Source: a virus
Lineage: Duplodnaviria; Heunggongvirae; Uroviricota; Caudoviricetes
Strand: one strand, 5' to 3'
IMG/VR virus record: IMGVR_UViG_2778261687_000002
Span: 1-6,370 of that record
Length of the DNA: 6,370 bases
Shown: piece after piece, positions 1 to 6,370 of the stretch
Numbering within the stretch: the first letter of the stretch is position 1
Layout: the number at the start of each line of letters is the position of its first letter
Notes under the pieces: generated by a model
Seen by the model: the letters and a program-made list of their open reading frames with translations, nothing else
What the model was told of the DNA's origin: nothing
Database searches by the model: none
Made by a program: the position numbers and the translations under genes

Positions 1-77
1 TGTTTTTGTCATGTGAGTCACCTCTGACTGAGAGTTTACTCACTTAGCCGCGTGTCCACTATTGCTGGGTAAGATCA
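1..77 (-). mobile_element. IS3-type insertion sequence, left end only (terminal inverted repeat, leader, first four codons of orfA); the element continues beyond the window start
   Basis: Reverse complement of 1..77 reads TGATCTTACCCAGCAATAGTGGACACGCGGCTAAGTGAGTAAACTCTCAGTCAGAGGTGACTCACATGACAAAAACA, which I recognise from memory as the IS3 left terminus (TG...CA-type end), followed by a GAGGTGA ribosome-binding site and ATG ACA AAA ACA (MTKT, the OrfA/InsE start) at 12..1 on the minus strand. Not verified by search. Confidence 0.75.
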
Positions 78-410
78 TGGATCGTACTTTAGGATATTTG
101 GGAAGTAGAATTGCTGTGAGCCATATGCGTCATACACAGCCATTGAATGACCTTCAACAGTTACAAATTTCGCAATTTGCCCGTTGTATACTGGATACCC
201 TCCAGCATTGATAACGATAGGCTGTGCAACAGGTATGTGCGTTCCATTTTCGTTTTCCAGATAAACCTGAATCTGGTTTTCAGGATTTACCGGGTCCGTG
301 TCAATTTTACCGATATAAATTTTGCCATTGGCTACGGCTTTAAAAGAACGAGCCATAGTGAAGAGTTGCGAAGGCATGCTTACTACAACATTAGCTGTAA
401 TGTCTGTCAT
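75..410 (-). pseudogene. P22-like tailspike, N-terminal head-binding domain only (111 aa), truncated by the IS3 end
   Basis: Translation [42 protein letters not shown]...LKYDP closely matches the P22 gp9 head-binding domain as I recall it. GGAG lies 8 nt upstream of the ATG at 410. The TGA stop at 77..75 is formed by the first three bases of the IS3 terminus. A full tailspike is about 650-700 aa. Confidence 0.85.
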
Positions 411-468
411 TTAATTTGCTCCAGATACAAGGAATCACCGAAGCATGGCTACGGTGAATTTTGGGCAT

Positions 469-491
469 AAAAAAACCCAGCCGAAGCTGGG
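469..491 (-). terminator. Rho-independent terminator (minus strand) upstream of the tailspike start
   Basis: Minus strand reads CCCAGC-TTCG-GCTGGG followed by TTTTTTT: a 6-7 bp GC-rich stem, tetraloop and U-tract. Plus-strand stem is 476..491 with the A-run at 469..475. Confidence 0.6.
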
Positions 492-543
492 TCGTTGCGT
501 TGGTTATCTGTCAGTAGTTATGTACTGGCTGAAGGATTTGTAC

Positions 544-574
544 AAAAAAACCACCTGACGGTGGGTTAATTTTT
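544..574 (-). terminator. Second hairpin terminator, mainly minus-strand, possibly bidirectional
   Basis: Stem CCACC (551..555), loop TGAC, stem GGTGG (560..564). Flanked by AAAAAAA (544..550), which gives a 7-U tract on the minus strand, and by GTTAATTTTT on the plus strand. The stem is short (5 bp). Confidence 0.45.
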
Positions 575-592
575 GCATTTACCTGGGCCATA

Positions 593-621
593 TTGACTAC
601 TTATAAAATGAGATCAATATT
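593..621 (+). promoter_or_regulatory. Candidate sigma70 promoter for the YjzC-like gene
   Basis: TTGACT at 593..598, a 17 nt spacer, then AATATT at 616..621 (4/6 match to TATAAT), about 35 nt upstream of the ATG at 658. Pattern match only. Confidence 0.25.
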
Positions 622-657
622 TAATCGCCCAATAACGGGTGTATGTTGAGGTATATC

Positions 658-837
658 ATGGCGAAAAAACCAGGTGAAAACACAGGAAAAAACGGCGGAA
701 TATACCAAGAAGTTGGCCCACGCGGCGGTAAGAAAGACAATTTTGCCACCGTCAAGGACAACGAAAGGCTTCCACCAACAACAAAGCCAGGTCATGGCTG
801 GGTATTGGATAAGCGAACTCCAGACAGCAAAAAGTAA
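658..837 (+). CDS. YjzC-like small protein (59 aa), accessory gene
   Basis: MAKKPGENTGKNGGIYQEVGPRGGKKDNFATVKDNERLPPTTKPGHGWVLDKRTPDSKK fits the YjzC-like small-protein pattern as I recall it (KPGE..G.Y.EVGPRGG...TV.....LPPT.KPG..W). GAGGT lies 5 nt upstream of the ATG at 658. The ORF-track start at 643 has no ribosome-binding site. A terminator follows directly. Confidence 0.7.
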   Translation: MAKKPGENTGKNGGIYQEVGPRGGKKDNFATVKDNERLPPTTKPGHGWVLDKRTPDSKK

Positions 838-843
838 TAATCA

Positions 844-866
844 AGCCGGTTCACTCCGGCTTTTTG
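844..866 (+). terminator. Rho-independent terminator of the YjzC-like gene
   Basis: AGCCGG-TTCACT-CCGGCT followed by TTTT, starting 7 nt after the TAA stop. It overlaps the last four codons of the convergent minus-strand gene. Confidence 0.55.
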
Positions 867-1216
867 ATATGTCGCTCGCAGAACTCAACAAGCCTGCTCA
901 TTAAGTAGCAGTAAGTCTCGTTGGCTCTTCCTGGTTCAACATCAACACCTACCCTTGAGCAGATATCGAATGCCATGTGAGCGCACTCATGGGCAATAGT
1001 AGATAGTTTGCCATTGAACACGCCTATCACATGCAAAACACCATTCTCGCTACTCATTGTATGAGACGCTCCGTTGGCGTCCGAGTCATGCACGTCAACG
1101 CCAAGTTTTTGATGCAGGCGTTGCCATTCTGGAAAGTCTCTACAAAACACAATTGTACCGCTCTCAAAGAGCGGAACGAGCATCTTTGGTACGTTTCCAA
1201 TGTTAACTTTTTTCAT
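851..1216 (-). CDS. HExxH zinc-metallopeptidase-like protein (121 aa), ImmA/IrrE- or SprT-like by motif only
   Basis: Intact 121-codon ORF containing [15 protein letters not shown], a hydrophobic-xx-HExxH-hydrophobic zincin motif, with downstream acidic residues ([10 protein letters not shown]). No strong ribosome-binding site (AGGA 4 nt before the ATG). Family assignment is from the motif alone. Confidence 0.55.
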
Positions 1217-1246
1217 GGTATCCTGCGCAAAACTAAGGAGGTTGGT

Positions 1247-1741
1247 GTGTCTGATTCTATGAGTTACGCTGTGCTAGTTGCCGCAACTCTATTTATGGGG
1301 ATAGGGTTGCAGATTGCGTGGTTCTTTTTTTCTAGTTTTATTAAACGCAAAAGAATTGAATCAAGGATATCTGAGATTTCTATTGCTATAGGGAAAAATG
1401 CTGAAAATCCAGAGAATGAGGCCTGCGCACTGAATTACCTTAAAGAAAAGTTTTCCCCTGAAAAATTTGAAAATAGAATTACTGATGCTCTTGGATTGGT
1501 AATATCAGTAATTCATATGCCACTAAGTTTGCTGATAACAGTGTGGTACTTCGCCATGATCGCCGGAAGAATATTTGGTTTCATGAATATAGAGCCTGTA
1601 GTTCTTTGGGTTCCAATGATACTGCAACTGTTGTTAAGCGTTGCTATCTTTATTTTTTCTGTTTTTATAAAAATTGTCTTTGGAAGATACCCCGGAGAAG
1701 CTAAGGGATTTAATAAAGAATTCATAAAAACTATAAAATAA
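1247..1741 (+). CDS. AT-rich small inner-membrane protein (about 164 aa, three predicted transmembrane helices), in the sieA-equivalent position
   Basis: Strong ribosome-binding site TAAGGAGG at 1234..1241, 5 nt before an in-frame GTG at 1247 (the ATG at 1259 is an alternative start). Hydrophobic segments [45 protein letters not shown] and [31 protein letters not shown] content is visibly lower (about 35%) than the flanks. The ORF-track N-terminal extension from 1031 lies upstream of the ribosome-binding site and overlaps the HExxH gene. Confidence 0.7.
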
Positions 1742-1763
1742 ATGCCGTCCTTGGCTTACAGTG

Positions 1764-2912
1764 CTACTGCCGGGTCGCTTCGTTAGCTAAGAGCGGGCGC
1801 ACGGCAGTAGCAGCCTGATTTAGCGCTCTTTCATAAGCTGGCGTTCCAGCTTTAGTGTTTGCCAGACGTAAGAGCGCATTCCTTGCTGCTTTGGACTCAT
1901 ACAAACGCATCATTGCACCAAAACCAGCCTCAAGCCCCATTGATACTCCAAGAGTCGCAGTTGCGCCAATCGTCCTTATCCTGTTGGCTTGTGATTGCCC
2001 CGTCTGAGTTACTACATTTGCGGTGTCTGACCTTGCTGTTTGCTGTAGAACTTCATGAAGAGCATCAAGCTCTTTCATGTGCTTTCCAGAAAAAATAGTG
2101 TTGTAAATTTCACCGCCTGACTGAGATTTAAGCTTATTAACTTCAGTGATGAACTTGGCTGGAGAGTCACCGGCCTTTTCCGCTATTTTGCTGACGTAAG
2201 CTGCACGCATAGCATCTTTCCCTTTATCATCCAATGCGCTCCAGATTCGTTTCACGTCAGATGGTTTTCTGCTTAATACAACGGTATTTATAAGTTCAGG
2301 ACTGGCTTCACTGCTTGCCTTGTTGAGCTTGTTAGCAATGTTTTTATTAAGCACCTTATTATAAACGTTTGCATAATCGGAGTTTGCTTTAAGGTATTTT
2401 GCTGCGTCTGATGCACCAAGGTTTTTTGCAACTGCGTTACGAAGATCTTTTGACATTGCATTCTCTACCATATTGGTAGCTGCTTTTGCCTGGTTTGGGA
2501 AGACCATAGCATCTCCCTGAACATTAGATCTAAATGCTGTTCTGTGCTGACGCAAGAGATCAAACGTAACATCCAAATCAGTTGCAGGGTTTGCTAATTC
2601 TTCGCGTAGGTTACGCAAGGATGTAAGCAGACTTTGATTGGCAGACGTCCCAAGCCGTTCCTGTCTTGCGATCGCTGTATTCAGAGCATTCATGGTATTT
2701 GTGGTATCAACTGCGGCATTACCCATTTTATTGGTGACGTCATTGATAACAGCGCCAGCGGCATCCTTCCGCCCCCTTAACGTGGTGGTCAGAGATTTCA
2801 CCACATCATCAGGGTTGTACTCACCAAAACGGTCAAAATAATTGCTTACCAGCTTACTACGCGTTGCATATTGCTCCGCTCGCTTTGAGCCTGTCCCGAG
2901 CAAAGCCCCCTC
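1764..2912 (-). CDS. Phage virion/ejection-protein-like C-terminal region (Ala/Asn/Lys-rich; possibly P22 gp16-like by position), lacking its own start and fused in frame to the ninG fragment
   Basis: Long open frame with low-complexity, helical composition typical of phage injection or tail-associated proteins. No ATG with a ribosome-binding site; the ORF-track start at 2903 is a TTG inside a continuous frame that stays open up to 3143. The gp16-like assignment rests on synteny (next to the sieA-like gene and tailspike), not on recalled sequence identity. Confidence 0.45.
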
Positions 2913-3107
2913 GGCATCCCACTGAGCAGACGTGAGCGTTCCGCACGAGATACATGGTAAGTCGCGGTCTCTTTCTCTGATGAAGGCGTTTACGGCTTGT
3001 TGGGCTTGTTTAATCCAGTAACTGCGGGGCTTTAAGGCGAGTTTTCGAATCTTAAGTTTATCTTTCTGTTTCTGCTCCTCTCGTCGCCGTTTCTTCTCTG
3101 CTGCTTT
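2913..3107 (-). pseudogene. ninG: ninG (Rap-like) internal fragment, in frame with the downstream virion-protein-like ORF
   Basis: The same minus-strand frame translates as [65 protein letters not shown], matching lambda NinG as I recall it. Homology stops at ...AQWDA (lambda continues GHYR...) and there is a TGA just upstream at 3146..3144. Both N- and C-terminal parts of NinG are missing. Confidence 0.6.
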
Positions 3108-3421
3108 TCCCGATAGAGCATGATGATTGAGTCTGCGTCCTGCTCAATGCTTCCTGAATCACGCAAATCTGCGTTTGTCGGGCGTTTGTTTGGTCGCTTC
3201 TCAACATCGCGCGAAAGCTGACTCAGGGAGATAACAGGCGTTTTCAGGTCTTTCGCCATCGCCTTCAGGCTTCCTGAGATGTGAGCAATTGCGAGGTCGT
3301 TGCGGTCTGCTTTCGGCTTCTCAATCAGGCCAAGATAATCCGCCATGATGAGTGACAGGTTTGGATTTTCCTGTTTGTGCCGTTCTGCGATTGAGCGTAT
3401 TTCTTCGACCGATACCCAATG
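3032..3421 (-). pseudogene. DnaB-family replicative helicase, C-terminal fragment (P22 gene 12 / lambda P-region type)
   Basis: Minus-strand frame reads ...[33 protein letters not shown]...[63 protein letters not shown], which is the DnaB C-terminal signature region. The N-terminal roughly 300 aa (Walker motifs) are absent. After LYRE the frame diverges into the ninG sequence read out of frame ([24 protein letters not shown], stop). The ORF-track start at 3346 is an internal Met. Confidence 0.7.
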
Positions 3422-3571
3422 TCCGATAGCTCCCTGTGTGCATCCAACTGCCTTAAGCCTGAAGAAATGTTTCCTGTAATGGAAGATGGGAAATATGTCG
3501 ATAAATGGGCAATACGAACGACGGCAATGATTGCCAGAGAACTTGGTAAACAGAATAACAAGGCTGCCTGA
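3419..3571 (+). CDS. Small plus-strand ORF (50 aa from the ATG at 3419; 34 aa from the ATG at 3467), possibly the 3' remnant of a truncated gene
   Basis: [50 protein letters not shown]. No convincing ribosome-binding site. The TGA stop (3569..3571) sits in the loop of the hairpin terminator that follows. Below the ORF-track size cut-off. Confidence 0.25.
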
Positions 3572-3589
3572 TGGTGGCCTTTATTTTTT
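3562..3589 (+). terminator. Candidate rho-independent terminator (plus strand)
   Basis: GGCTGCC-TGAT-GGTGGCC (7 bp stem with two G:U pairs) followed by TTTATTTTTT. Confidence 0.4.
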
Positions 3590-3630
3590 GGCCGTAAATA
3601 ATTTCATGCTTATTACAATCAAGGGGATAT

Positions 3631-3996
3631 ATGGAAGAACAAGCAAACAAGATTCTCGTAGAACTACTGCAAAAAGCCAGTAATGGAATAGACGCGGCTG
3701 TTTCATTTAGCCAGGCACAGATTCCTGATGTCATCCATCAGCTTTTGATGTGGCACGCCGTATCATCAGCTGGAATTCAGGCTATCTGTGTATTGGTGAT
3801 TATAGCGTGTGTTTATCTGATGATTTTTGCATGGAATAAAGGAGATGATGCGGATGTTGTTCTTTTATCGCTACTTGTAACATCAGGAATAGCGATTACT
3901 TCTATTGTTGTTTTCTTCAATTATTTCGACTGGCTGAAAATCTGGCTTGCTCCAAAACTTTACCTTATCGAATATGCAGCATCATTGGTTAAGTAA
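3631..3996 (+). CDS. Small membrane protein (121 aa, two predicted transmembrane helices), unknown function; superinfection-exclusion or holin-like candidate
   Basis: Ribosome-binding site AGGGG 4 nt before the ATG. Soluble N-terminal roughly 45 aa, then hydrophobic helices GIQAICVLVIIACVYLMIFAW and VVLLSLLVTSGIAITSIVVFFNYF. Followed by a clean terminator. Moderately AT-rich. Confidence 0.65.
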   Translation: MEEQANKILVELLQKASNGIDAAVSFSQAQIPDVIHQLLMWHAVSSAGIQAICVLVIIACVYLMIFAWNKGDDADVVLLSLLVTSGIAITSIVVFFNYFDWLKIWLAPKLYLIEYAASLVK

Positions 3997-4000
3997 TTTC

Positions 4001-4026
4001 AGGCCGCATAGTCGGCCTTCATTTTT
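4001..4026 (+). terminator. Rho-independent terminator of the 121-aa membrane protein gene
   Basis: AGGCCG-CATAGT-CGGCCT (6 bp stem) followed by TCATTTTT, starting 5 nt after the TAA stop. Confidence 0.6.
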
Positions 4027-4089
4027 GGCATAAACAACAGAATAAACACTGCACTGTGTATTCATTCCAACGAGTGAATATCTGAGGTT

Positions 4090-4293
4090 TTGAAACGCAC
4101 TGGCTATAGCAAGGCGTGGGTATATGCTCTGATGAGCCGAGGACAATTCCCTCAATCAGTCAAGATTGGTGCTCGCGCAATAGCTTTTATTGAAAGCGAG
4201 ATCGATGACTGGATCGATCAACGTATAGCCGAATCGCGTAGTAACAAAGAACAGAAACAAACCGGATACAAACAATACGTTATTAGGTATTAA
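4090..4293 (+). CDS. alpA: AlpA/Vis-family winged-helix DNA-binding protein (prophage regulatory protein / excisionase-like), apparently N-terminally shortened
   Basis: (ISEV)LKRTGYSKAWVYALMSRGQFPQSVKIGARAIAFIESEIDDWI matches the AlpA/P4 Vis pattern (..EV...TGLSRSTIY.L...G.FP.PVK.G.R.V.W...E...W). The only in-frame start after the TGA at 4075..4077 is the TTG at 4090; the usual leading residues of the family are missing. Confidence 0.6.
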   Translation: MKRTGYSKAWVYALMSRGQFPQSVKIGARAIAFIESEIDDWIDQRIAESRSNKEQKQTGYKQYVIRY

Positions 4294-4295
4294 GA

Positions 4296-4487
4296 ATGCA
4301 GTTGACCCCCACCAATCAAAAGCTGAACGTAACCCATGTTGATTTTGAGACCTTCGCGGAACTGATTAGATCAGATCCACAAAAGGTAAGCACCAGCACC
4401 TGGGTTTATGATGTGAAATCCACCAACGGTGGAAAAGCTATCGGCATTGTCTCTGGCGATGATTACTTAGTAATCGATCTGATTTAA
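4296..4487 (+). CDS. Hypothetical small protein (63 aa), translationally coupled to the alpA-like gene
   Basis: AGGT ribosome-binding site 7 nt before the ATG, which is 2 nt after the alpA-like stop. No recognisable motif. Confidence 0.5.
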   Translation: MQLTPTNQKLNVTHVDFETFAELIRSDPQKVSTSTWVYDVKSTNGGKAIGIVSGDDYLVIDLI

Positions 4488-4513
4488 TCACACAAAAATT
4501 GTAGAGTGATTTG

Positions 4514-4532
4514 GGAAGACAGGAAGTCTTCC
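4514..4532. promoter_or_regulatory. Perfect 7 bp inverted repeat with 5 nt spacer (GGAAGAC-AGGAA-GTCTTCC); candidate operator or weak terminator
   Basis: Seen directly in the intergenic region between the 63-aa ORF and the HTH gene, about 40 bp upstream of the ATG at 4570. No clean U-tract follows. Confidence 0.35.
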
Positions 4533-4569
4533 TCCGTATTGCATTTTGGTACAACAGTAAGGGAATAAA

Positions 4570-4764
4570 ATGATTAATTATCTGACCGCTAAAGACGCAG
4601 CAGAATATCTTGGTGTCTGTCTATCACGCTTCTATCAGTTAAAGCGATATATCCCCAGCTTTCCCCCCTATGTAAATCAGACCATCAATGGACGCAAGCG
4701 CAGAGTGTGGCTTGCCTCCAGCCTTGATCAATTTGCCGACAGATTTCTGGGGGGACGAAAATGA
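4570..4764 (+). CDS. Excisionase/AlpA-type helix-turn-helix (HTH_17-like) DNA-binding protein, 64 aa
   Basis: Ribosome-binding site AAGGGA 5 nt before the ATG. LTAKDAAEYLGVCLSRFYQLKR...GRKRRVWLASSLDQFADRF follows the Xis/AlpA winged-helix pattern (LT.keaAeyLGvs..t.Y.l......P.....G.r.rW....ld.w). Confidence 0.65.
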   Translation: MINYLTAKDAAEYLGVCLSRFYQLKRYIPSFPPYVNQTINGRKRRVWLASSLDQFADRFLGGRK

Positions 4765-5147
4765 GCACTCTTACACGTACTCAGGTCGCCGCAAATATAC
4801 GCGATAGCCTACTAAGTGGCAGGAAGCTTACCCCAAAGGAGTTTGATGACATATTAAGGAAAGCAGGAAATCACGAACGTAGTCGCGTTTTAACGCTGTT
4901 ACGCAACGATTGGGGAATTCCTGTTGAACAGTGTAAAACAGGGGCGTATCACGTCACAGAACGCAACTTAGAAGCATACCACAGCGATAAAGACGAAACA
5001 TTGAAGCTCTGGAGGACGAACGCCAGATATGTAAAGACATTGCGTAAGGTAAACATAACGTTGTCGTTGTTGCGTGGGCTGGTGGGCAAAGTGCCTGAAG
5101 ACACGCTTAGAACTATTTACAAGGGTATTGAAACCAAATACCTGTGA
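4761..5147 (+). CDS. Hypothetical protein (128 aa), translationally coupled (ATGA overlap) to the upstream HTH gene
   Basis: Start ATG overlaps the upstream stop (ATGA at 4761..4764). GGGGGA ribosome-binding site 5 nt upstream. No motif recognised. Confidence 0.6.
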   Translation: MSTLTRTQVAANIRDSLLSGRKLTPKEFDDILRKAGNHERSRVLTLLRNDWGIPVEQCKTGAYHVTERNLEAYHSDKDETLKLWRTNARYVKTLRKVNITLSLLRGLVGKVPEDTLRTIYKGIETKYL

Positions 5148-5159
5148 TTGACAAAGTAG

Positions 5160-5186
5160 AAAGCCGACTTTGCGAGAGTCGGCTTT
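5160..5186 (+). terminator. Strong hairpin (10 bp stem AAAGCCGACT / AGTCGGCTTT, 7 nt loop) just after the 128-aa ORF; candidate terminator, possibly bidirectional
   Basis: Perfect 10 bp stem seen directly. The U-tract is only 3 nt, contributed by the stem arm. A TTGACA hexamer at 5148..5153 immediately precedes it. Confidence 0.45.
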
Positions 5187-5215
5187 GAATCAATTGAAAT
5201 ATATGAATTTTACAC

Positions 5216-6268
5216 ATGGAATTATACGATAAAGACGCGAGTCTATCCACAAAATCACAAGCCGTAATCAATCGCATCAATGGTCGAACCTTAGCTTATG
5301 TGAAATCAGTTAAGTACAAACGTAATGAATTAAAGGCGGAGAATAAACGACAATCATCAAAGGCTAACCACTGCATACCACCAGCCTGGACAAAGAGGAA
5401 ATGGCGTACAATGAGGCGAGCTTTGTTTACTCTGGATGTCGAATCAACTAGTGGTATCCCCTACTCCTTTACCTTCAGACCCGTTAAGGGAACAACGCCA
5501 GAGAAATTCAACAAAGCGTTAAAGGCACTTACCAGATGGTTGACTTCGAAAGGCAATCAGTGGGTTTACGTCATGGAGTGGGCTCGACACCAGTCAGAGC
5601 CGCATGTACACGCAATAATCATGGTGAACGAAAGAAGCATTAATGGGCAAGCTGGCAAAATTGTCAGCAAATGGGTAACACTGGCAAACAATGCAATCCC
5701 ATCAAATGTTCCTCCTCAGTGGGATCTAGATTTGAAAGGTCAGCAATATTCAGAGCCTACAAAGTGTATAGGTAAACAGATTGATTACATGGCAAAGCCC
5801 GAAACTAAGTTAAATGACTTTAATAGAGAGGCGAGCAAGAGCCTATATGATTGGTCAGATGCCACCGTTTGGGGTTATTCGAATGGCTGGGCGCGGCATG
5901 AGATAAAAAAAGAAACACTTTCTATCACTGGCTTTCATGCTGTAAGACGCATACTAAAAGCCATTCAGGCATCAAGGAAAGACAACTACAAAGTTAAGCG
6001 ACAGATACAGCGTACATTGAAACGACAAGACATAAATCGCTCACCAATCACCCCATTCCAAGCACCGTTAATTAGCAAACACGATTGGGATTTATCAGTG
6101 ATAGCGGTCACCAAAGAGGCAGAGACAGAGCGCAGGGAGTTACTATCCTCACAGATAATAAACTCGAACAAAGTACAAACCTACCCGCTGTTAAGGATGT
6201 TAAGAAAAGCACGAGTGAGAGCATCAAGAGCCAGAAGAGAAAGCGGAGGTTATGACCTTTACTACTAG
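5216..6268 (+). CDS. Putative HUH-type rolling-circle replication initiator (Rep), 350 aa; compare inovirus gene II-like or CP4-57 YfjI-like proteins found next to alpA
   Basis: Long ORF with motif I-like FTLD (aa 71-74), HUH motif EPHVHAIIMV (aa 128-137) and a YxxK tyrosine motif QIDYMAKPETK (aa 188-198), each about 59 aa apart, with a basic C-terminal tail. No ribosome-binding site before the ATG at 5216, so the start is uncertain. Function inferred from motifs only. Confidence 0.5.
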   Translation: MELYDKDASLSTKSQAVINRINGRTLAYVKSVKYKRNELKAENKRQSSKANHCIPPAWTKRKWRTMRRALFTLDVESTSGIPYSFTFRPVKGTTPEKFNKALKALTRWLTSKGNQWVYVMEWARHQSEPHVHAIIMVNERSINGQAGKIVSKWVTLANNAIPSNVPPQWDLDLKGQQYSEPTKCIGKQIDYMAKPETKLNDFNREASKSLYDWSDATVWGYSNGWARHEIKKETLSITGFHAVRRILKAIQASRKDNYKVKRQIQRTLKRQDINRSPITPFQAPLISKHDWDLSVIAVTKEAETERRELLSSQIINSNKVQTYPLLRMLRKARVRASRARRESGGYDLYY

Positions 6269-6370
6269 TAGTGACAGATCGTGACAAGGCTGTGGCTTTG
6301 TTGAATAAATCAGATTTCGGGTAAGTCTCCCCCGTAGCGGGTTGTGTTTTCAGGCAATACGCACGCTTTC

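What the first reader, a model, noticed from the sequence alone, without database searches (positions are those of the whole stretch)
4090..5186. Four-gene coupled operon with two AlpA/Xis-type winged-helix proteins separated by a perfect palindrome
The genes at 4090, 4296, 4570 and 4761 are tightly packed (2 nt gap, ATGA overlap) and all have ribosome-binding sites. Two of them (67 aa and 64 aa) are AlpA/excisionase-type HTH proteins, an unusual duplication within one short operon. A perfect 7 bp inverted repeat (GGAAGAC-N5-GTCTTCC, 4514..4532) sits just upstream of the second HTH gene, and a 10 bp-stem hairpin closes the operon. The 63-aa and 128-aa partners have no motif I recognise. This could be the control region of a satellite-like element or a small regulatory or defence cassette.
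Basis: partly seen in the sequence, partly recalled or inferred. Interest (0 to 1): 0.5.

Follow-up and report, generated by a model that had tools for sequence, protein, structure and literature searches.

The report
Mobile-island replication cassette with conserved hairpin
The four small genes are the damaged control region of a small mobile island of E. coli. They are a broken excision-regulator gene, an orphan gene, and two DNA-binding genes that always sit next to a rolling-circle replication gene, and the 'palindrome' is a conserved stem-loop that looks like a binding site for the global RNA-binding regulator CsrA.

Summary
They do not form one coupled four-gene operon.

- **ORF1** is an alpA pseudogene. 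Homology to intact copies starts at 4079, so the native start and 11 codons are missing. A 1-nt deletion removes its stop codon, and that deletion creates the '2-nt gap'.
- **ORF3 and ORF4** are an HTH_17-like protein and a winged-helix protein, coupled by an ATGA overlap. With the HUH rolling-circle Rep at 5216-6268 they form a triad that stays together in every relative. Relatives include argW islands (215 of 5,426 complete E. coli genomes), der-xseA islands, and small circular Klebsiella and gut-metagenome plasmids.
- **The palindrome** is a stem-loop with strong covariation: at least 12 different stems, and 8 of 9 pairs with compensatory changes. Its loop is nearly invariant, CAGGA(A/U)G, which is the CsrB repeat recognised by CsrA. 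A predicted promoter places it at the 5' end of the mRNA. This argues against a dimer operator.
- **A better origin candidate** lies downstream of rep in relatives. In this window IS903B cuts that region off.

CsrA binding is inferred from sequence, not shown.

The parts
4079..4293 (+). alpA remnant. It is 5'-truncated (native codons 1-8 are lost and the first usable start is TTG 4090, which is native Leu-12). It has also lost its stop codon through a 1-nt deletion near 4246. It is probably a pseudogene of the island's excision/activation regulator.
   Evidence: Phage_AlpA E 8e-15, but only profile positions 11-51 are matched. The alignment with intact loci L001 and L002 shows the truncation and the deletion. 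A terminator-like hairpin at 4001-4018 lies just upstream and no native promoter remains. The junction is unique among 5,426 complete genomes.
4296..4487 (+). orf63: a 63-aa protein restricted to this lineage, sitting in the slot between alpA and the replication cassette. Function unknown.
4479..4507 (+). Predicted sigma70-type promoter of the hth-wH transcript: -35 CTGATT (4479-4484), 17-nt spacer, -10 TAGAGT (4502-4507).
   Evidence: This is a consensus match only (7 of 12). However, a promoter of this type with its -10 ending 2-7 nt before the hairpin base is found in all 12 lineages examined, scoring 7-10 of 12. The generic scan did not list it.
4513..4533 (+). It has a 7-bp Watson-Crick stem at 4514-4520/4526-4532, a G4513-U4533 wobble pair, and the loop AGGAA at 4521-4525. 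Together with the closing pair the loop reads CAGGAAG, which is the CsrB/CsrA-site motif.
   Evidence: The motif is present upstream of hth in all relatives. All 41 hairpins of this type found in about 1.04 Mb of fetched DNA lie there. Covariation: 83.6% of cells paired against 63% in shuffles, 8 of 9 pairs with changes on both sides, score 0.613 against 0.244 (0 of 500 shuffles reach it). It forms in the RNA minimum-free-energy and centroid structures, -11.2 kcal/mol. The CsrB repeat CAGGA(U/A/C)G in hairpin loops is described in PMC7652899.
4559..4572 (+). Shine-Dalgarno region AAGGGAAUAAAAUG of hth64. It contains a second GGA, about 40 nt from the loop GGA.
   Evidence: Read directly from the sequence. 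Every lineage has a GGA-containing SD. CsrA can bridge two sites 10-63 nt apart (PMC7652899).
4570..4764 (+). hth64: a small protein resembling the HTH_17 / excisionase / MerR N-terminal type. It is the first gene of the replication cassette.
   Evidence: HTH_17 E 1.2e-4, 22.7 bits, below the cut-off of 27. It lies immediately upstream of wH and rep in all relatives. dN/dS is 0.14. It has no BLASTP similarity to AlpA.
4761..5147 (+). wh128: a winged-helix protein followed by a long C-terminal helix. It is translationally coupled to hth64 through the ATGA overlap.
5160..5186 (+). Stem-loop between wh128 and rep, resembling a terminator or attenuator (10-bp stem, 7-nt loop, short U-run).
   Evidence: Detected. 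An equivalent hairpin is present in relatives with compensatory stem changes (GCCGACT/AGTCGGC in the window, GCCCGCT/AGCGGGC in the plasmid clade). A good U-tract is seen only in L009 and L012.
5216..6268 (+). Rolling-circle (HUH) replication initiator, 350 aa.
   Evidence: PF23343 REP_ORF2-G2P scores 28.6 bits against a cut-off of 27.8. RefSeq annotates it as 'rolling circle replication-associated protein'. H130, H132 (HUH motif) and Y191, K194 (YxxK motif) are invariant across relatives that are only 21-32% identical.
6295..6370 (.). End of an IS903B copy inserted 26 nt after the rep stop codon. It separates the cassette from the conserved non-coding block (origin candidate) that follows rep in intact relatives.
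   Evidence: The sequence is identical to the IS903B end annotated in L002. In intact islands the backbone continues about 300-517 nt beyond rep.

Best explanation
Window 4079-6293 is the decayed backbone of a small integrative island that targets tRNA-Arg (argW).

**Intact order of the island:** int, a 246-aa gene overlapping int, alpA, orf63, then a promoter and leader hairpin, hth64, wh128, a hairpin, rep, a conserved non-coding block, variable cargo, and a serine recombinase.

**Two units, not one operon**
1. An excision/activation unit made of alpA and orf63. In this window it is dead, because alpA is truncated and has lost its stop codon.
2. A plasmid-type rolling-circle replication cassette made of hth64, wh128 and rep.

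**Proposed workings (inferred)**
- hth64 and wh128 are small DNA-binding partners of Rep. They most likely act in autoregulation or copy control, or as origin accessory proteins.
- The palindrome is not a dimer operator. It is a stem-loop at the 5' end of the hth-wH mRNA that displays CAGGAAG.
- Together with the GGA in the Shine-Dalgarno region about 40 nt downstream, it most likely forms a two-site target for the host regulator CsrA. That would tie translation of the replication cassette to the host's Csr state.
- The hairpin at 5160-5186 limits read-through into rep.

**Shown:** gene identities, synteny, covariation of the stem, and conservation of the loop.
**Inferred:** the transcription start, CsrA binding, and the roles of hth64 and wh128.
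For: **Island context**
- The module lies between argW and dsdC, bounded by a 23-26-bp repeat of the tRNA 3' end.
- At least 80% of the 4296-5200 stretch (orf63 to the post-wH hairpin) is present in 215 of 5,426 complete E. coli genomes, always on the chromosome.

**ORF1 is damaged:**

**The triad hth-wH-rep is invariant**
- It is kept across argW-type islands, der-xseA-type islands and integrase-less circular replicons of about 5.3-6.2 kb.
- The same module is found on real Klebsiella plasmids of 5.3-6.3 kb.
- alpA and orf63 are present in only some lineages.
- Rep carries the HUH and YxxK motifs.
- wh128 has a winged-helix fold.

**The hairpin**
- Covariation and loop conservation.
- All 41 hairpins of this type in about 1 Mb of fetched DNA lie upstream of hth.
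- A -10 element ends 2-7 nt before the stem in 12 lineages.
- Many lineages carry a second tandem hairpin, UUACAGGAUGUA, whose U-G pairs all fall on the sense strand.
- Distant wH homologs next to a non-HUH replicase also have a GGA-loop hairpin in their leader.
- The motif equals the CsrB repeat CAGGA(U/A/C)G, and the spacing to the SD lies within CsrA's 10-63-nt bridging range (PMC7652899).
- CsrA is already known to control plasmid genes, for example ColE7 cel (PMC2896534).

**A better origin candidate exists:** a block downstream of rep, conserved from islands to plasmids.
Against: - No transcript or binding data exist. The promoter in this window is weak (7 of 12) and the generic scan did not list it.
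- The stems are 6-10 bp. SELEX ligands for CsrA favoured short stems (PMC7652899).
- A few lineages have degenerate loops in hairpin 1: CAGAAAG, CAAGAGG, CATGAAG.
- In hairpin 1, G-T and A-C mismatches are about equally frequent, so there is no strand signal there.
- Every Shine-Dalgarno sequence tends to contain GGA, so the second 'site' is weak evidence.
- Neither the origin nor the roles of hth64 and wh128 have been tested.
- Rfam has no matching family.
Confidence: 0.55

Rival explanations
1. One reading: the palindrome is a double-stranded DNA operator bound by a dimer of one of the HTH proteins (hth64, wh128 or AlpA), which autoregulates the downstream genes.
For: It is a perfect inverted repeat. 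It lies at about +1 to +20 of the predicted promoter, a classic repressor position. Two DNA-binding proteins are encoded directly downstream.
Against: The half-sites are not conserved. At least 12 different arm sequences were seen, including differences among near-identical proteins, yet the arms stay complementary. The 'spacer' is the conserved part. Lineages with two tandem hairpins have unrelated arms in the two copies, but the hth64 proteins are highly conserved across the plasmid-clade lineages that have such different hairpin-1 stems.
Confidence: 0.12
2. The hairpin is the double-strand origin of the rolling-circle replicon. It would extrude as a cruciform and Rep would nick in the conserved AGGAA loop, much like the nick hairpin upstream of copG-repB in pMV158 (comparison from my own knowledge).
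For: A conserved loop with a variable stem is also typical of nick-site hairpins. It lies just upstream of a small-regulator-plus-rep operon, and Rep is an HUH enzyme.
Against: A longer non-coding block downstream of rep (CAAAGTCTTAG(A/G)AAAAA ... TGAAGGGC ... CTTATA) is conserved from E. coli islands to plasmids and is a better origin candidate. GGA-loop hairpins also precede wH homologs that sit beside a non-HUH replicase, PF03090 plus PriCT_1. The hairpins lie downstream of the predicted -10 element. Hairpin 2 keeps a T-G pair that would be a mismatch in a DNA cruciform. Two tandem copies would be unusual for a nick site.
Confidence: 0.13
3. The stem-loop acts in RNA without CsrA. It could be a 5'-terminal stabiliser against RNase E or RppH, a target of another RNA-binding protein (possibly wh128 itself), or a kissing-loop target of an antisense copy-control RNA.
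For: It sits at the predicted 5' end of the transcript. The covariation fits an RNA helix. Small plasmids often use countertranscripts for copy control (my own knowledge).
Against: A pure stabiliser would not need a conserved loop sequence. Antisense loops normally diverge between incompatibility groups rather than staying identical. No terminator-like feature for a countertranscript lies on the minus strand beside the hairpin (sequences). The loop matches a known protein-binding motif exactly.
Confidence: 0.15
4. The four ORFs form an autonomous functional cassette in this genome, either regulatory or defensive, expressed as one coupled operon.
For: The genes are closely spaced and have the same orientation. 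ORF2, ORF3 and ORF4 are intact.
Against: ORF1 lacks its start codon, promoter and stop codon, and sits behind a terminator-like hairpin. No PADLOC or defence-type signal was found in the four proteins beyond a sub-threshold HTH hit. ORF3 and ORF4 never occur without a replication gene. In this copy the island has lost int and the int-overlapping gene, and IS903B interrupts it after rep.
Confidence: 0.03

Closest known systems
PICMI (phage-inducible chromosomal minimalist islands of Vibrionaceae; PMC10803314)
   Same: It has the same minimalist layout: int, a gene overlapping int, alpA, one small gene of variable family, a replication gene, and accessory or defence cargo. In PICMI, alpA, int and the overlapping gene are needed for excision. 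Intact argW islands have int, a 246-aa gene overlapping int by 8 nt, alpA, orf63, the replication cassette and variable cargo.
   Different: Replication here uses an HUH rolling-circle Rep with two small DNA-binding partners rather than a DUF3987/DUF5906 primase. Integration is at argW (or der-xseA) rather than beside fis. The host is Enterobacteriaceae. A serine recombinase sits at the far end. No helper phage, induction or packaging has been shown.
Cop-Rep cassettes of small rolling-circle plasmids such as pMV158 copG-repB (my own knowledge)
   Same: One or more small DNA-binding proteins are encoded directly upstream of, and co-oriented with, an HUH rep gene. A structured regulatory leader precedes them. 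The same cassette occurs on circular plasmids of about 5.3-6.3 kb.
   Different: The proteins are unrelated: an HTH_17-like protein plus a 128-aa winged-helix protein rather than a ribbon-helix-helix CopG, and Rep belongs to PF23343. No countertranscript is evident. The cassette is also found inside integrative islands.
CsrA/RsmA target sites: the CsrB repeats CAGGA(U/A/C)G and two-site leaders such as glgC (PMC7652899)
   Same: The loop plus closing pair reads CAGGAAG or CAGGAUG in a hairpin. Hairpin 2 in many lineages reads UUACAGGAUGUA, close to the SELEX consensus RUACARGGAUGU. A second GGA lies at the SD within bridging distance.
   Different: The stems are longer (6-10 bp) than most SELEX ligands. 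The loop has five nucleotides rather than six. No binding or regulation data exist. The target would be a mobile-element replication cassette, for which I found no precedent.
AlpA of Gram-negative PICIs and CP4-57 (PF05930)
   Same: ORF1 is a clear AlpA-family sequence. In intact islands it occupies the canonical position downstream of int.
   Different: In this window it is a truncated remnant without a stop codon. The second HTH (hth64) is not an AlpA paralog. This differs from EcCIMP1, which has two true alpA genes (PMC11773190).
'Integrase-only' defence-carrying mobile islands of E. coli hotspots (PMC10121019)
   Same: These are small tRNA-linked islands with an integrase or recombinase, variable cargo including a known defence system (retron III-A in strain S1-INA-02-A), and no recognised transfer genes.
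   Different: That study did not describe a replication cassette. Here one is identified and shown to be shared with plasmids.

Membership tests
AlpA (Pfam PF05930), for ORF1 | Score above the Pfam gathering threshold | tested here: met
   54.9 bits against a cut-off of 21, E 8.3e-15.
AlpA (Pfam PF05930), for ORF1 | Complete domain and intact reading frame | tested here: not met
   Only profile positions 11-51 of 51 are matched. The native start and 11 residues are missing, and the stop codon is lost through a 1-nt deletion.
HTH_17 / excisionase-type HTH (PF12728, TIGR01764), for ORF3 | Score above the curated threshold | tested here: not met
   HTH_17 scores 22.7 bits against a cut-off of 27. 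TIGR01764 scores 16.7 against 28.8. Only 2 of 9 family members hit HTH_17 at E <= 0.01. The resemblance is probable, but membership is not established.
Paralogous duplication of AlpA (ORF1 compared with ORF3) | Detectable pairwise similarity | tested here: not met
   BLASTP of native AlpA against hth64 gives no alignment at E <= 100.
HUH rolling-circle Rep | HUH metal-binding motif and a catalytic Tyr motif conserved across relatives | tested here: met
   H130, H132, Y191 and K194 are invariant in an alignment of Reps that are 21-32% identical. PF23343 scores 28.6 bits against a cut-off of 27.8.
HUH rolling-circle replicon | An identified double-strand origin or nick site | tested here: inconclusive
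   The candidate is a conserved non-coding block downstream of rep in relatives. It is absent from the window because of IS903B. No nicking data exist.
PICMI satellites | int and alpA co-located | tested here: met
   True in intact relatives. In the window int is lost and alpA is truncated.
PICMI satellites | Primase of the DUF3987/DUF5906 type (mandatory in the published model) | tested here: not met
   The replication gene is an HUH Rep of family PF23343. No primase domain was found.
PICMI satellites | Integration downstream of fis | tested here: not met
   The integration sites are argW, with direct repeats of the tRNA 3' end, and der-xseA.
Phage satellite (any family) | Helper-phage-dependent excision, replication and packaging | not testable with these tools
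   IMG/VR hits are prophage predictions from isolate genomes that run into the neighbouring island. They are not evidence of packaging.
CsrA/RsmA binding site | GGA in the loop of a hairpin, of the CsrB-type CAGGA(U/A/C)G form | tested here: met
   15 of 19 distinct hairpin-1 variants read CAGGA(A/U)G exactly, and 4 are degenerate (L032, L045, L054/L065-type and L064). Hairpin 2 is nearly invariant. The motif definition comes from PMC7652899.
CsrA/RsmA binding site | Located in the transcribed 5' leader, with a second GGA at or near the SD within 10-63 nt | tested here: inconclusive
   The predicted -10 ends 2-7 nt before the stem in 12 lineages, and a GGA-containing SD lies about 40 nt downstream. 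The transcription start has not been measured.
CsrA/RsmA binding site | Binding of CsrA and CsrA-dependent regulation | not testable with these tools
   Needs EMSA, footprinting or reporter assays.
Intrinsic terminator (5160-5186) | GC-rich stem followed by a U-tract | tested here: inconclusive
   The stem meets the criterion, but only 3 U follow on the + strand. The scan listed it only on the - strand. Relatives L009 and L012 have good U-tracts and the plasmid clade does not.

The most novel reading that the evidence does not exclude
A previously undescribed family of plasmid-derived rolling-circle replicons is shared by small Klebsiella plasmids and by satellite-like integrative islands of E. 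coli that carry variable cargo, including a known anti-phage system in one strain. In this reading, the host global regulator CsrA controls the family's replication cassette through one or two CsrB-type hairpins at the 5' end of its mRNA. The element would then replicate, or become active, according to the cell's Csr (growth or stress) state.
Probability: 0.35. Interest if true: 0.65.

Novelty: new variant of a known kind. Interest (0 to 1): 0.5.

Why it matters
- **An uncharacterised replicon.** The hth-wH-Rep cassette is the replicon of small Klebsiella plasmids for which PLSDB lists no replicon type. One of them carries KPC-2. It is also the replication module of islands found in about 4% of complete E. 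coli genomes. These islands carry variable cargo, including a retron in one strain. Assigning a replication module to these 'integrase-only' islands gives a concrete hypothesis for how they amplify after excision.
- **An unusually clean regulatory signal.** The leader hairpin shows strong covariation and an invariant loop. If CsrA binds it, this would link a global post-transcriptional regulator to the replication of a mobile element, and simple reporters could test that directly.

Tried and rejected
- **Rfam (E <= 1) on 3900-6370:** no family matched.
- **hth64 profile against the PDB:** only spurious hits.
- **Is the ORF in the alpA-hth slot of L063 a distant orf63 homolog?** hhalign probability was 0.2, so this was rejected.
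- **EcCIMP1 (a PICI with two alpA genes, helper phage Kapi1 at argW) as the same element.** Rejected: it is integrated at tRNA-Thr, carries a primase and is 20 kb long.
- **IMG/VR hits as evidence of encapsidation.** Rejected: they are prophage calls from isolate genomes that end inside the adjacent island.
- **My early inference that the conserved backbone ends 25 nt after rep.** This was wrong. The IS903B insertion in the window truncates the match, and intact islands stay conserved for about 300-517 nt further.
- **Strand test using G-T versus A-C mismatches.** Uninformative for hairpin 1 (6-8 against 7). It supports the sense strand only for hairpin 2 (7 against 0), and those reflect few independent events.
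- **PADLOC on cargo genes:** only one cargo is a recognised system, retron III-A.
- **Literature searches:** nothing found describing this island or pKP4365.
Full report
**1. What the window is**

The 6,370-bp window is a mosaic of E. coli sequence.
- Positions 1 to about 4078 are rearranged debris of P22-like and lambdoid prophages. They include a tailspike head-binding N-terminus at 75-410(-), a fragment of the DNA-transfer gene at 1764-2903(-), a DnaB C-terminal fragment at 3032-3346(-), Ral at 3419-3571 and a phrog_3054 membrane protein at 3631-3996.
- From 4079 to 6293 the window matches a module found in many E. coli chromosomes, up to 99.5% identical.
- Positions 6295-6370 are the end of an IS903B copy.

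**2. Checking the observation**

The four ORFs, the ATGA overlap, the 7-bp perfect inverted repeat at 4514-4532 and the 10-bp inverted repeat at 5160-5186 are all present.

ORF1 is not an intact gene. An alignment with intact loci shows that the native alpA gene starts with ATGAAAAAGTCGCTGATTCGGCTATCTGAGGTTTTG. Homology in the window begins only at TATCTGAGG (4079). The in-frame codon at 4075-4077 is TGA, and the 'TTG start' at 4090 is native Leu-12. In agreement, the Phage_AlpA match (E 8e-15) covers only profile positions 11-51.

A 1-nt deletion (AGTAAC-AAAG in the window, AGTAACTAAAG in relatives) removes the native stop codon. The frame therefore runs on to 4293. In intact copies the gene is 63 aa long and lies 48 nt from the next gene. 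A terminator-like hairpin at 4001-4018 lies just upstream. No complete E. coli genome spans this junction. The '2-nt gap' and the 'ribosome-binding site' of ORF1 are therefore artefacts of decay.

ORF3 is only weakly HTH_17-like (22.7 bits, cut-off 27). It has no detectable similarity to AlpA, so the two HTH genes are not a duplication.

In relatives all five genes evolve under purifying selection. dN/dS values are alpA 0.23, orf63 0.40, hth64 0.14, wh128 0.14 and rep 0.37.

**3. The element**

In intact strains the module lies between tRNA-Arg (argW) and dsdC. The gene order is as follows:
- a tyrosine integrase of 428 aa;
- a 246-aa gene overlapping the integrase gene by 8 nt;
- alpA;
- orf63;
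- hth64;
- wh128;
- rep;
- a variable cargo slot;
- sometimes a short ORF;
- a serine recombinase.

A 23-26-bp direct repeat of the tRNA 3' end (TTCGATTCCTGCAGGGGACACCAT) follows the recombinase gene. This defines an island of about 7.7 kb or more, with size varying with cargo and IS content.

At least 80% of the orf63-wh128 stretch is present in 215 of 5,426 complete E. coli genomes. It is always chromosomal.

Cargo differs between strains. Examples are a retron III-A reverse transcriptase with its PRTase, a GTPase-domain protein with an unknown partner, an HNH endonuclease, a ParA-like protein, and two large unknown proteins. PADLOC recognises only the retron.

Strain H1827/12 shows an earlier stage of the situation in this window. 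There, a decayed P22-like prophage sits at argW and abuts a truncated island integrase.

**4. The conserved core is a replication cassette**

Homologs of wh128 are rare: 16 representatives among 1.8 billion proteins. Collecting their loci from genomes, metagenomes and IMG/VR and mapping all island genes by tblastn gave one consistent result. The genes hth64, wh128 and an HUH Rep always occur together and in that order, down to 40% identity for wH and 26-34% for Rep. The flanking genes vary:
- (a) argW-type int, the int-overlapping gene, alpA and orf63;
- (b) a 68%-identical int with alpA but an unrelated ORF in place of orf63;
- (c) a different integrase directly upstream, in islands between der and xseA, with an AlpA-domain gene at the far end;
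- (d) no integrase at all, only a serine recombinase, on contigs of about 5.3-6.2 kb.

The contigs in group (d) have 55- or 127-nt terminal overlaps, and two of them are rotations of each other, so they are circular. Real Klebsiella plasmids of 5.3-6.3 kb carry the same cassette. PLSDB lists them as non-mobilizable and shows no replicon type.

Other properties of the cassette proteins:
- Rep keeps H130 and H132 (HUH motif) and Y191 and K194 (YxxK motif) across the family.
- wh128 is predicted with confidence (pLDDT 88.8) to be a winged helix followed by long helices. It matches only generic winged-helix regulators.
- More distant wH homologs (about 30-34% identical) sit next to a different replicase, PF03090 plus PriCT_1, on small replicons that also carry a resolvase.

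One is the remnant of the excision/activation unit (alpA and orf63). The other is the front of a plasmid-type replication cassette whose third gene, rep at 5216-6268, lies just outside the interval.

**5. The palindrome**

Every relative has a hairpin 38-66 nt upstream of the hth start codon. Counting the closing pair, the loop reads CAGGAAG or CAGGAUG. The stems differ. Examples:
- GGAAGAC
- GGGGAGAC
- TTATGGGGC
- GTCGGAC
- GGTTAGGC
- GTGTCGAGC
- TGTCAGGC
- TTCAGAC
- GTGATTGAGC
- AGTTGGAC

I aligned 19 distinct variants anchored only on the loop. The results were:
- 83.6% of cells form standard pairs, against 63% in column shuffles and at most 45% when the partner columns are slid by 1-3 positions;
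- 8 of 9 pairs show changes on both sides;
- the covariation score is 0.613 against 0.244, and none of 500 shuffles reaches it.

In about 1.04 Mb of fetched DNA (both strands), all 41 hairpins with a perfect stem of at least 6 bp and a C-AGGAW-G loop lie at this position.

Many lineages carry a second tandem hairpin, (C)UUACAGGAUGUA(G/A)G. All its non-Watson-Crick pairs are U-G on the sense strand.

The only invariant block in the whole upstream region is CAGGA-G-C.

This pattern, with variable but complementary arms and a conserved centre, is the opposite of what a dimer operator should show. It is what a functional stem-loop should show.

**6. Where the hairpin sits and what reads it**

In all 12 lineages examined, a sigma70-like promoter (7-10 of 12 matches) has its -10 hexamer ending 2-7 nt before the base of the stem. 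In the window this is CTGATT-N17-TAGAGT at 4479-4507. The hairpin is therefore predicted to be the 5'-terminal structure of the hth-wH mRNA. This is an inference, and the window's promoter is the weakest of the set.

The loop motif is the repeat CAGGA(U/A/C)G, which CsrB presents in hairpin loops to bind CsrA. Hairpin 2 resembles the SELEX consensus RUACARGGAUGU. CsrA dimers bridge two GGA sites 10-63 nt apart (PMC7652899). Every lineage has a GGA-containing Shine-Dalgarno region, which lies about 40 nt downstream in the window. CsrA is already known to repress genes on Col plasmids (PMC2896534, PMC5916893).

My preferred mechanism is that CsrA binds the leader at two sites and controls translation of hth-wH, and through them rep. 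I give the CsrA step itself about 40-45% confidence. I found no report of CsrA sites in a replication cassette.

**7. Why not the origin?**

A conserved loop on a variable stem would also suit a nick-site hairpin for Rep. Four observations argue against this reading.
- Downstream of rep, a non-coding block is conserved from E. coli islands to the plasmids at 62-67% identity. Its invariant cores are AAAGTC(T/C)TAG(A/G)AAAAA, TGA(A/T)GGGC and CTTATA. It is a better origin candidate.
- The hairpins lie downstream of the predicted -10 element.
- Hairpin 2 keeps a T-G pair.
- wH homologs beside a non-HUH replicase also have GGA-loop hairpins in their leaders: L014 has CGGGAA-CGGA-TTCCCG, and L011 has GAC-AAAGGAT-GTC.

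In the window, IS903B is inserted 26 nt after the rep stop codon. The origin candidate is therefore separated from the cassette or lost.

**8. The second hairpin**

The hairpin at 5160-5186 has positional equivalents in all lineages, with compensatory stem changes and a similar loop (TTGCGAG in the window, TTGCAG in the plasmid clade). A convincing U-tract follows only in some lineages. I read it as a partial terminator or attenuator between wh128 and rep, not as the end of the unit.

**9. Comparison with known systems, and novelty**

The island's layout parallels that of PICMI satellites: int, a gene overlapping int, alpA, a variable small gene, a replication gene and cargo. It fails the PICMI definition on the primase and on the integration site. 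No helper phage is known.

The replication cassette works like the cop-rep modules of small rolling-circle plasmids, but its proteins are unrelated to those.

The islands correspond to the 'integrase-only' defence-carrying elements noted in the E. coli pan-genome, whose mode of mobilisation is unknown (PMC10121019).

I rate this as a new variant of known kinds. As originally described, the finding (duplicated AlpA proteins, an operator palindrome and a coupled four-gene operon) is partly an artefact of a decayed copy. What lies behind it is an uncharacterised plasmid/island replicon with a strongly covarying leader hairpin that resembles a CsrA site, and that is moderately interesting and easy to test.

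**10. Confidence by step**

| Step | Confidence |
|---|---|
| The module belongs to an argW integrative island, and ORF1 is a pseudogene | 0.9 or higher |
| hth-wH-rep is a plasmid-type rolling-circle replication cassette | about 0.85 |
| The palindrome is a selected stem-loop rather than a dimer operator | about 0.85 |
| The stem-loop acts in the mRNA leader | about 0.6 |
| CsrA is the factor that reads it | about 0.4-0.45 |

Noticed in passing
window 1-4078: A patchwork of P22-like and lambdoid prophage fragments on both strands: a tailspike head-binding N-terminus (75-410 -), a 121-aa ORF (851-1216 -), a SieA-like membrane protein (about 1247-1741 +), a fragment of the DNA-transfer (gene 16) protein (1764-2903 -), a DnaB C-terminal fragment (3032-3346 -), Ral (3419-3571 +) and a phrog_3054 membrane protein (3631-3996 +). 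The pattern suggests a prophage integrated at argW that decayed and recombined into the neighbouring island. Strain H1827/12 shows a similar arrangement.
   Followed up: partly
window 6295-6370 (also L002:10357-11325): IS903B is inserted 26 nt after the rep stop codon in the window. In strain TF5 the same IS sits inside orf63. These are independent IS903B hits in the same small island.
   Followed up: partly
L018:11366-11480, L001:14340-14490, L003:11810-11960, L054:4970-5120 (absent from the window): A non-coding block about 180-270 nt downstream of rep is conserved from E. coli islands to Klebsiella and metagenome plasmids. Its invariant cores are AAAGTC(T/C)TAG(A/G)AAAAA, TGA(A/T)GGGC and CTTATA. 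It is a candidate double-strand origin. In the plasmid clade it is preceded by two copies of the small hairpin GGCGG-TTTCA-CCGCC, 88 nt apart (L054:4843-4857 and 4931-4945).
   Followed up: partly
L069 (OW849042.1), L070 (pKP4365, KX783440), and hits H122-H129: Small Klebsiella plasmids of 5.3-15.7 kb use the hth-wH-rep cassette. They include a plasmid carrying KPC-2 on Tn4401. PLSDB/MOB-suite lists them as non-mobilizable and shows no replicon type, so this appears to be an untyped replicon family of clinical Klebsiella.
   Followed up: partly
L014:2040-2057 and L011:about 3601-3630: Distant wH homologs (about 30-34% identical) lie next to a PF03090 Replicase/PriCT_1 gene and a resolvase. They also have a hairpin with GGA in the loop in their leader, followed by a GGA-containing SD.
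   Followed up: partly
L018:8082-8822 (also L002:9082-9822, L020:8082-8822): A 246-aa gene of unknown function overlaps the 3' end of the island integrase gene by 8 nt. This is the same arrangement as the integrase-overlapping gene (iolg) that PICMI needs for excision. It occurs in two forms about 72% identical to each other.
   Followed up: no
orf63 homologs P0032, P0033, P0034, P0037 (window equivalent about 4389-4400): The length of an (S/T)n run (VSTSTW...) varies in frame between orf63 alleles. This looks like slippage of a short coding repeat that preserves the reading frame.
   Followed up: no
window 4363-4377 and 4476-4490; window 4480-4490: A 15-nt inverted repeat, 93% complementary (TGATTAGATCAGATC / GATCTGATTTAATCA), lies with one arm inside orf63 and the other over its stop codon and the predicted -35. 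The second arm contains the 11-bp palindrome TGATTTAATCA. It is not strictly conserved in relatives, which read ...AATCG... or ...CTAATTT..., so it may be chance.
   Followed up: partly
L003:8559-16091 (also L004, L005, L008, L009, L042-L044): A second island family lies between der and xseA. Its order is a P4-type integrase, hth, wH, rep, cargo (a pentapeptide-repeat membrane protein plus a nucleotidyltransferase-fold protein, with weak PADLOC candidate hits), a 199-aa protein with a C-terminal AlpA domain, and a zinc-ribbon gene. One copy is labelled as a Ligilactobacillus MAG contig (L008), which is probably a binning contaminant.
   Followed up: partly
L001:16139-18682: The cargo of the island in strain S1-INA-02-A is a type III-A retron (reverse transcriptase plus PRTase-like effector; PADLOC E 8e-152 and 2.5e-83). 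An IS3 lies between rep and the retron.
   Followed up: partly
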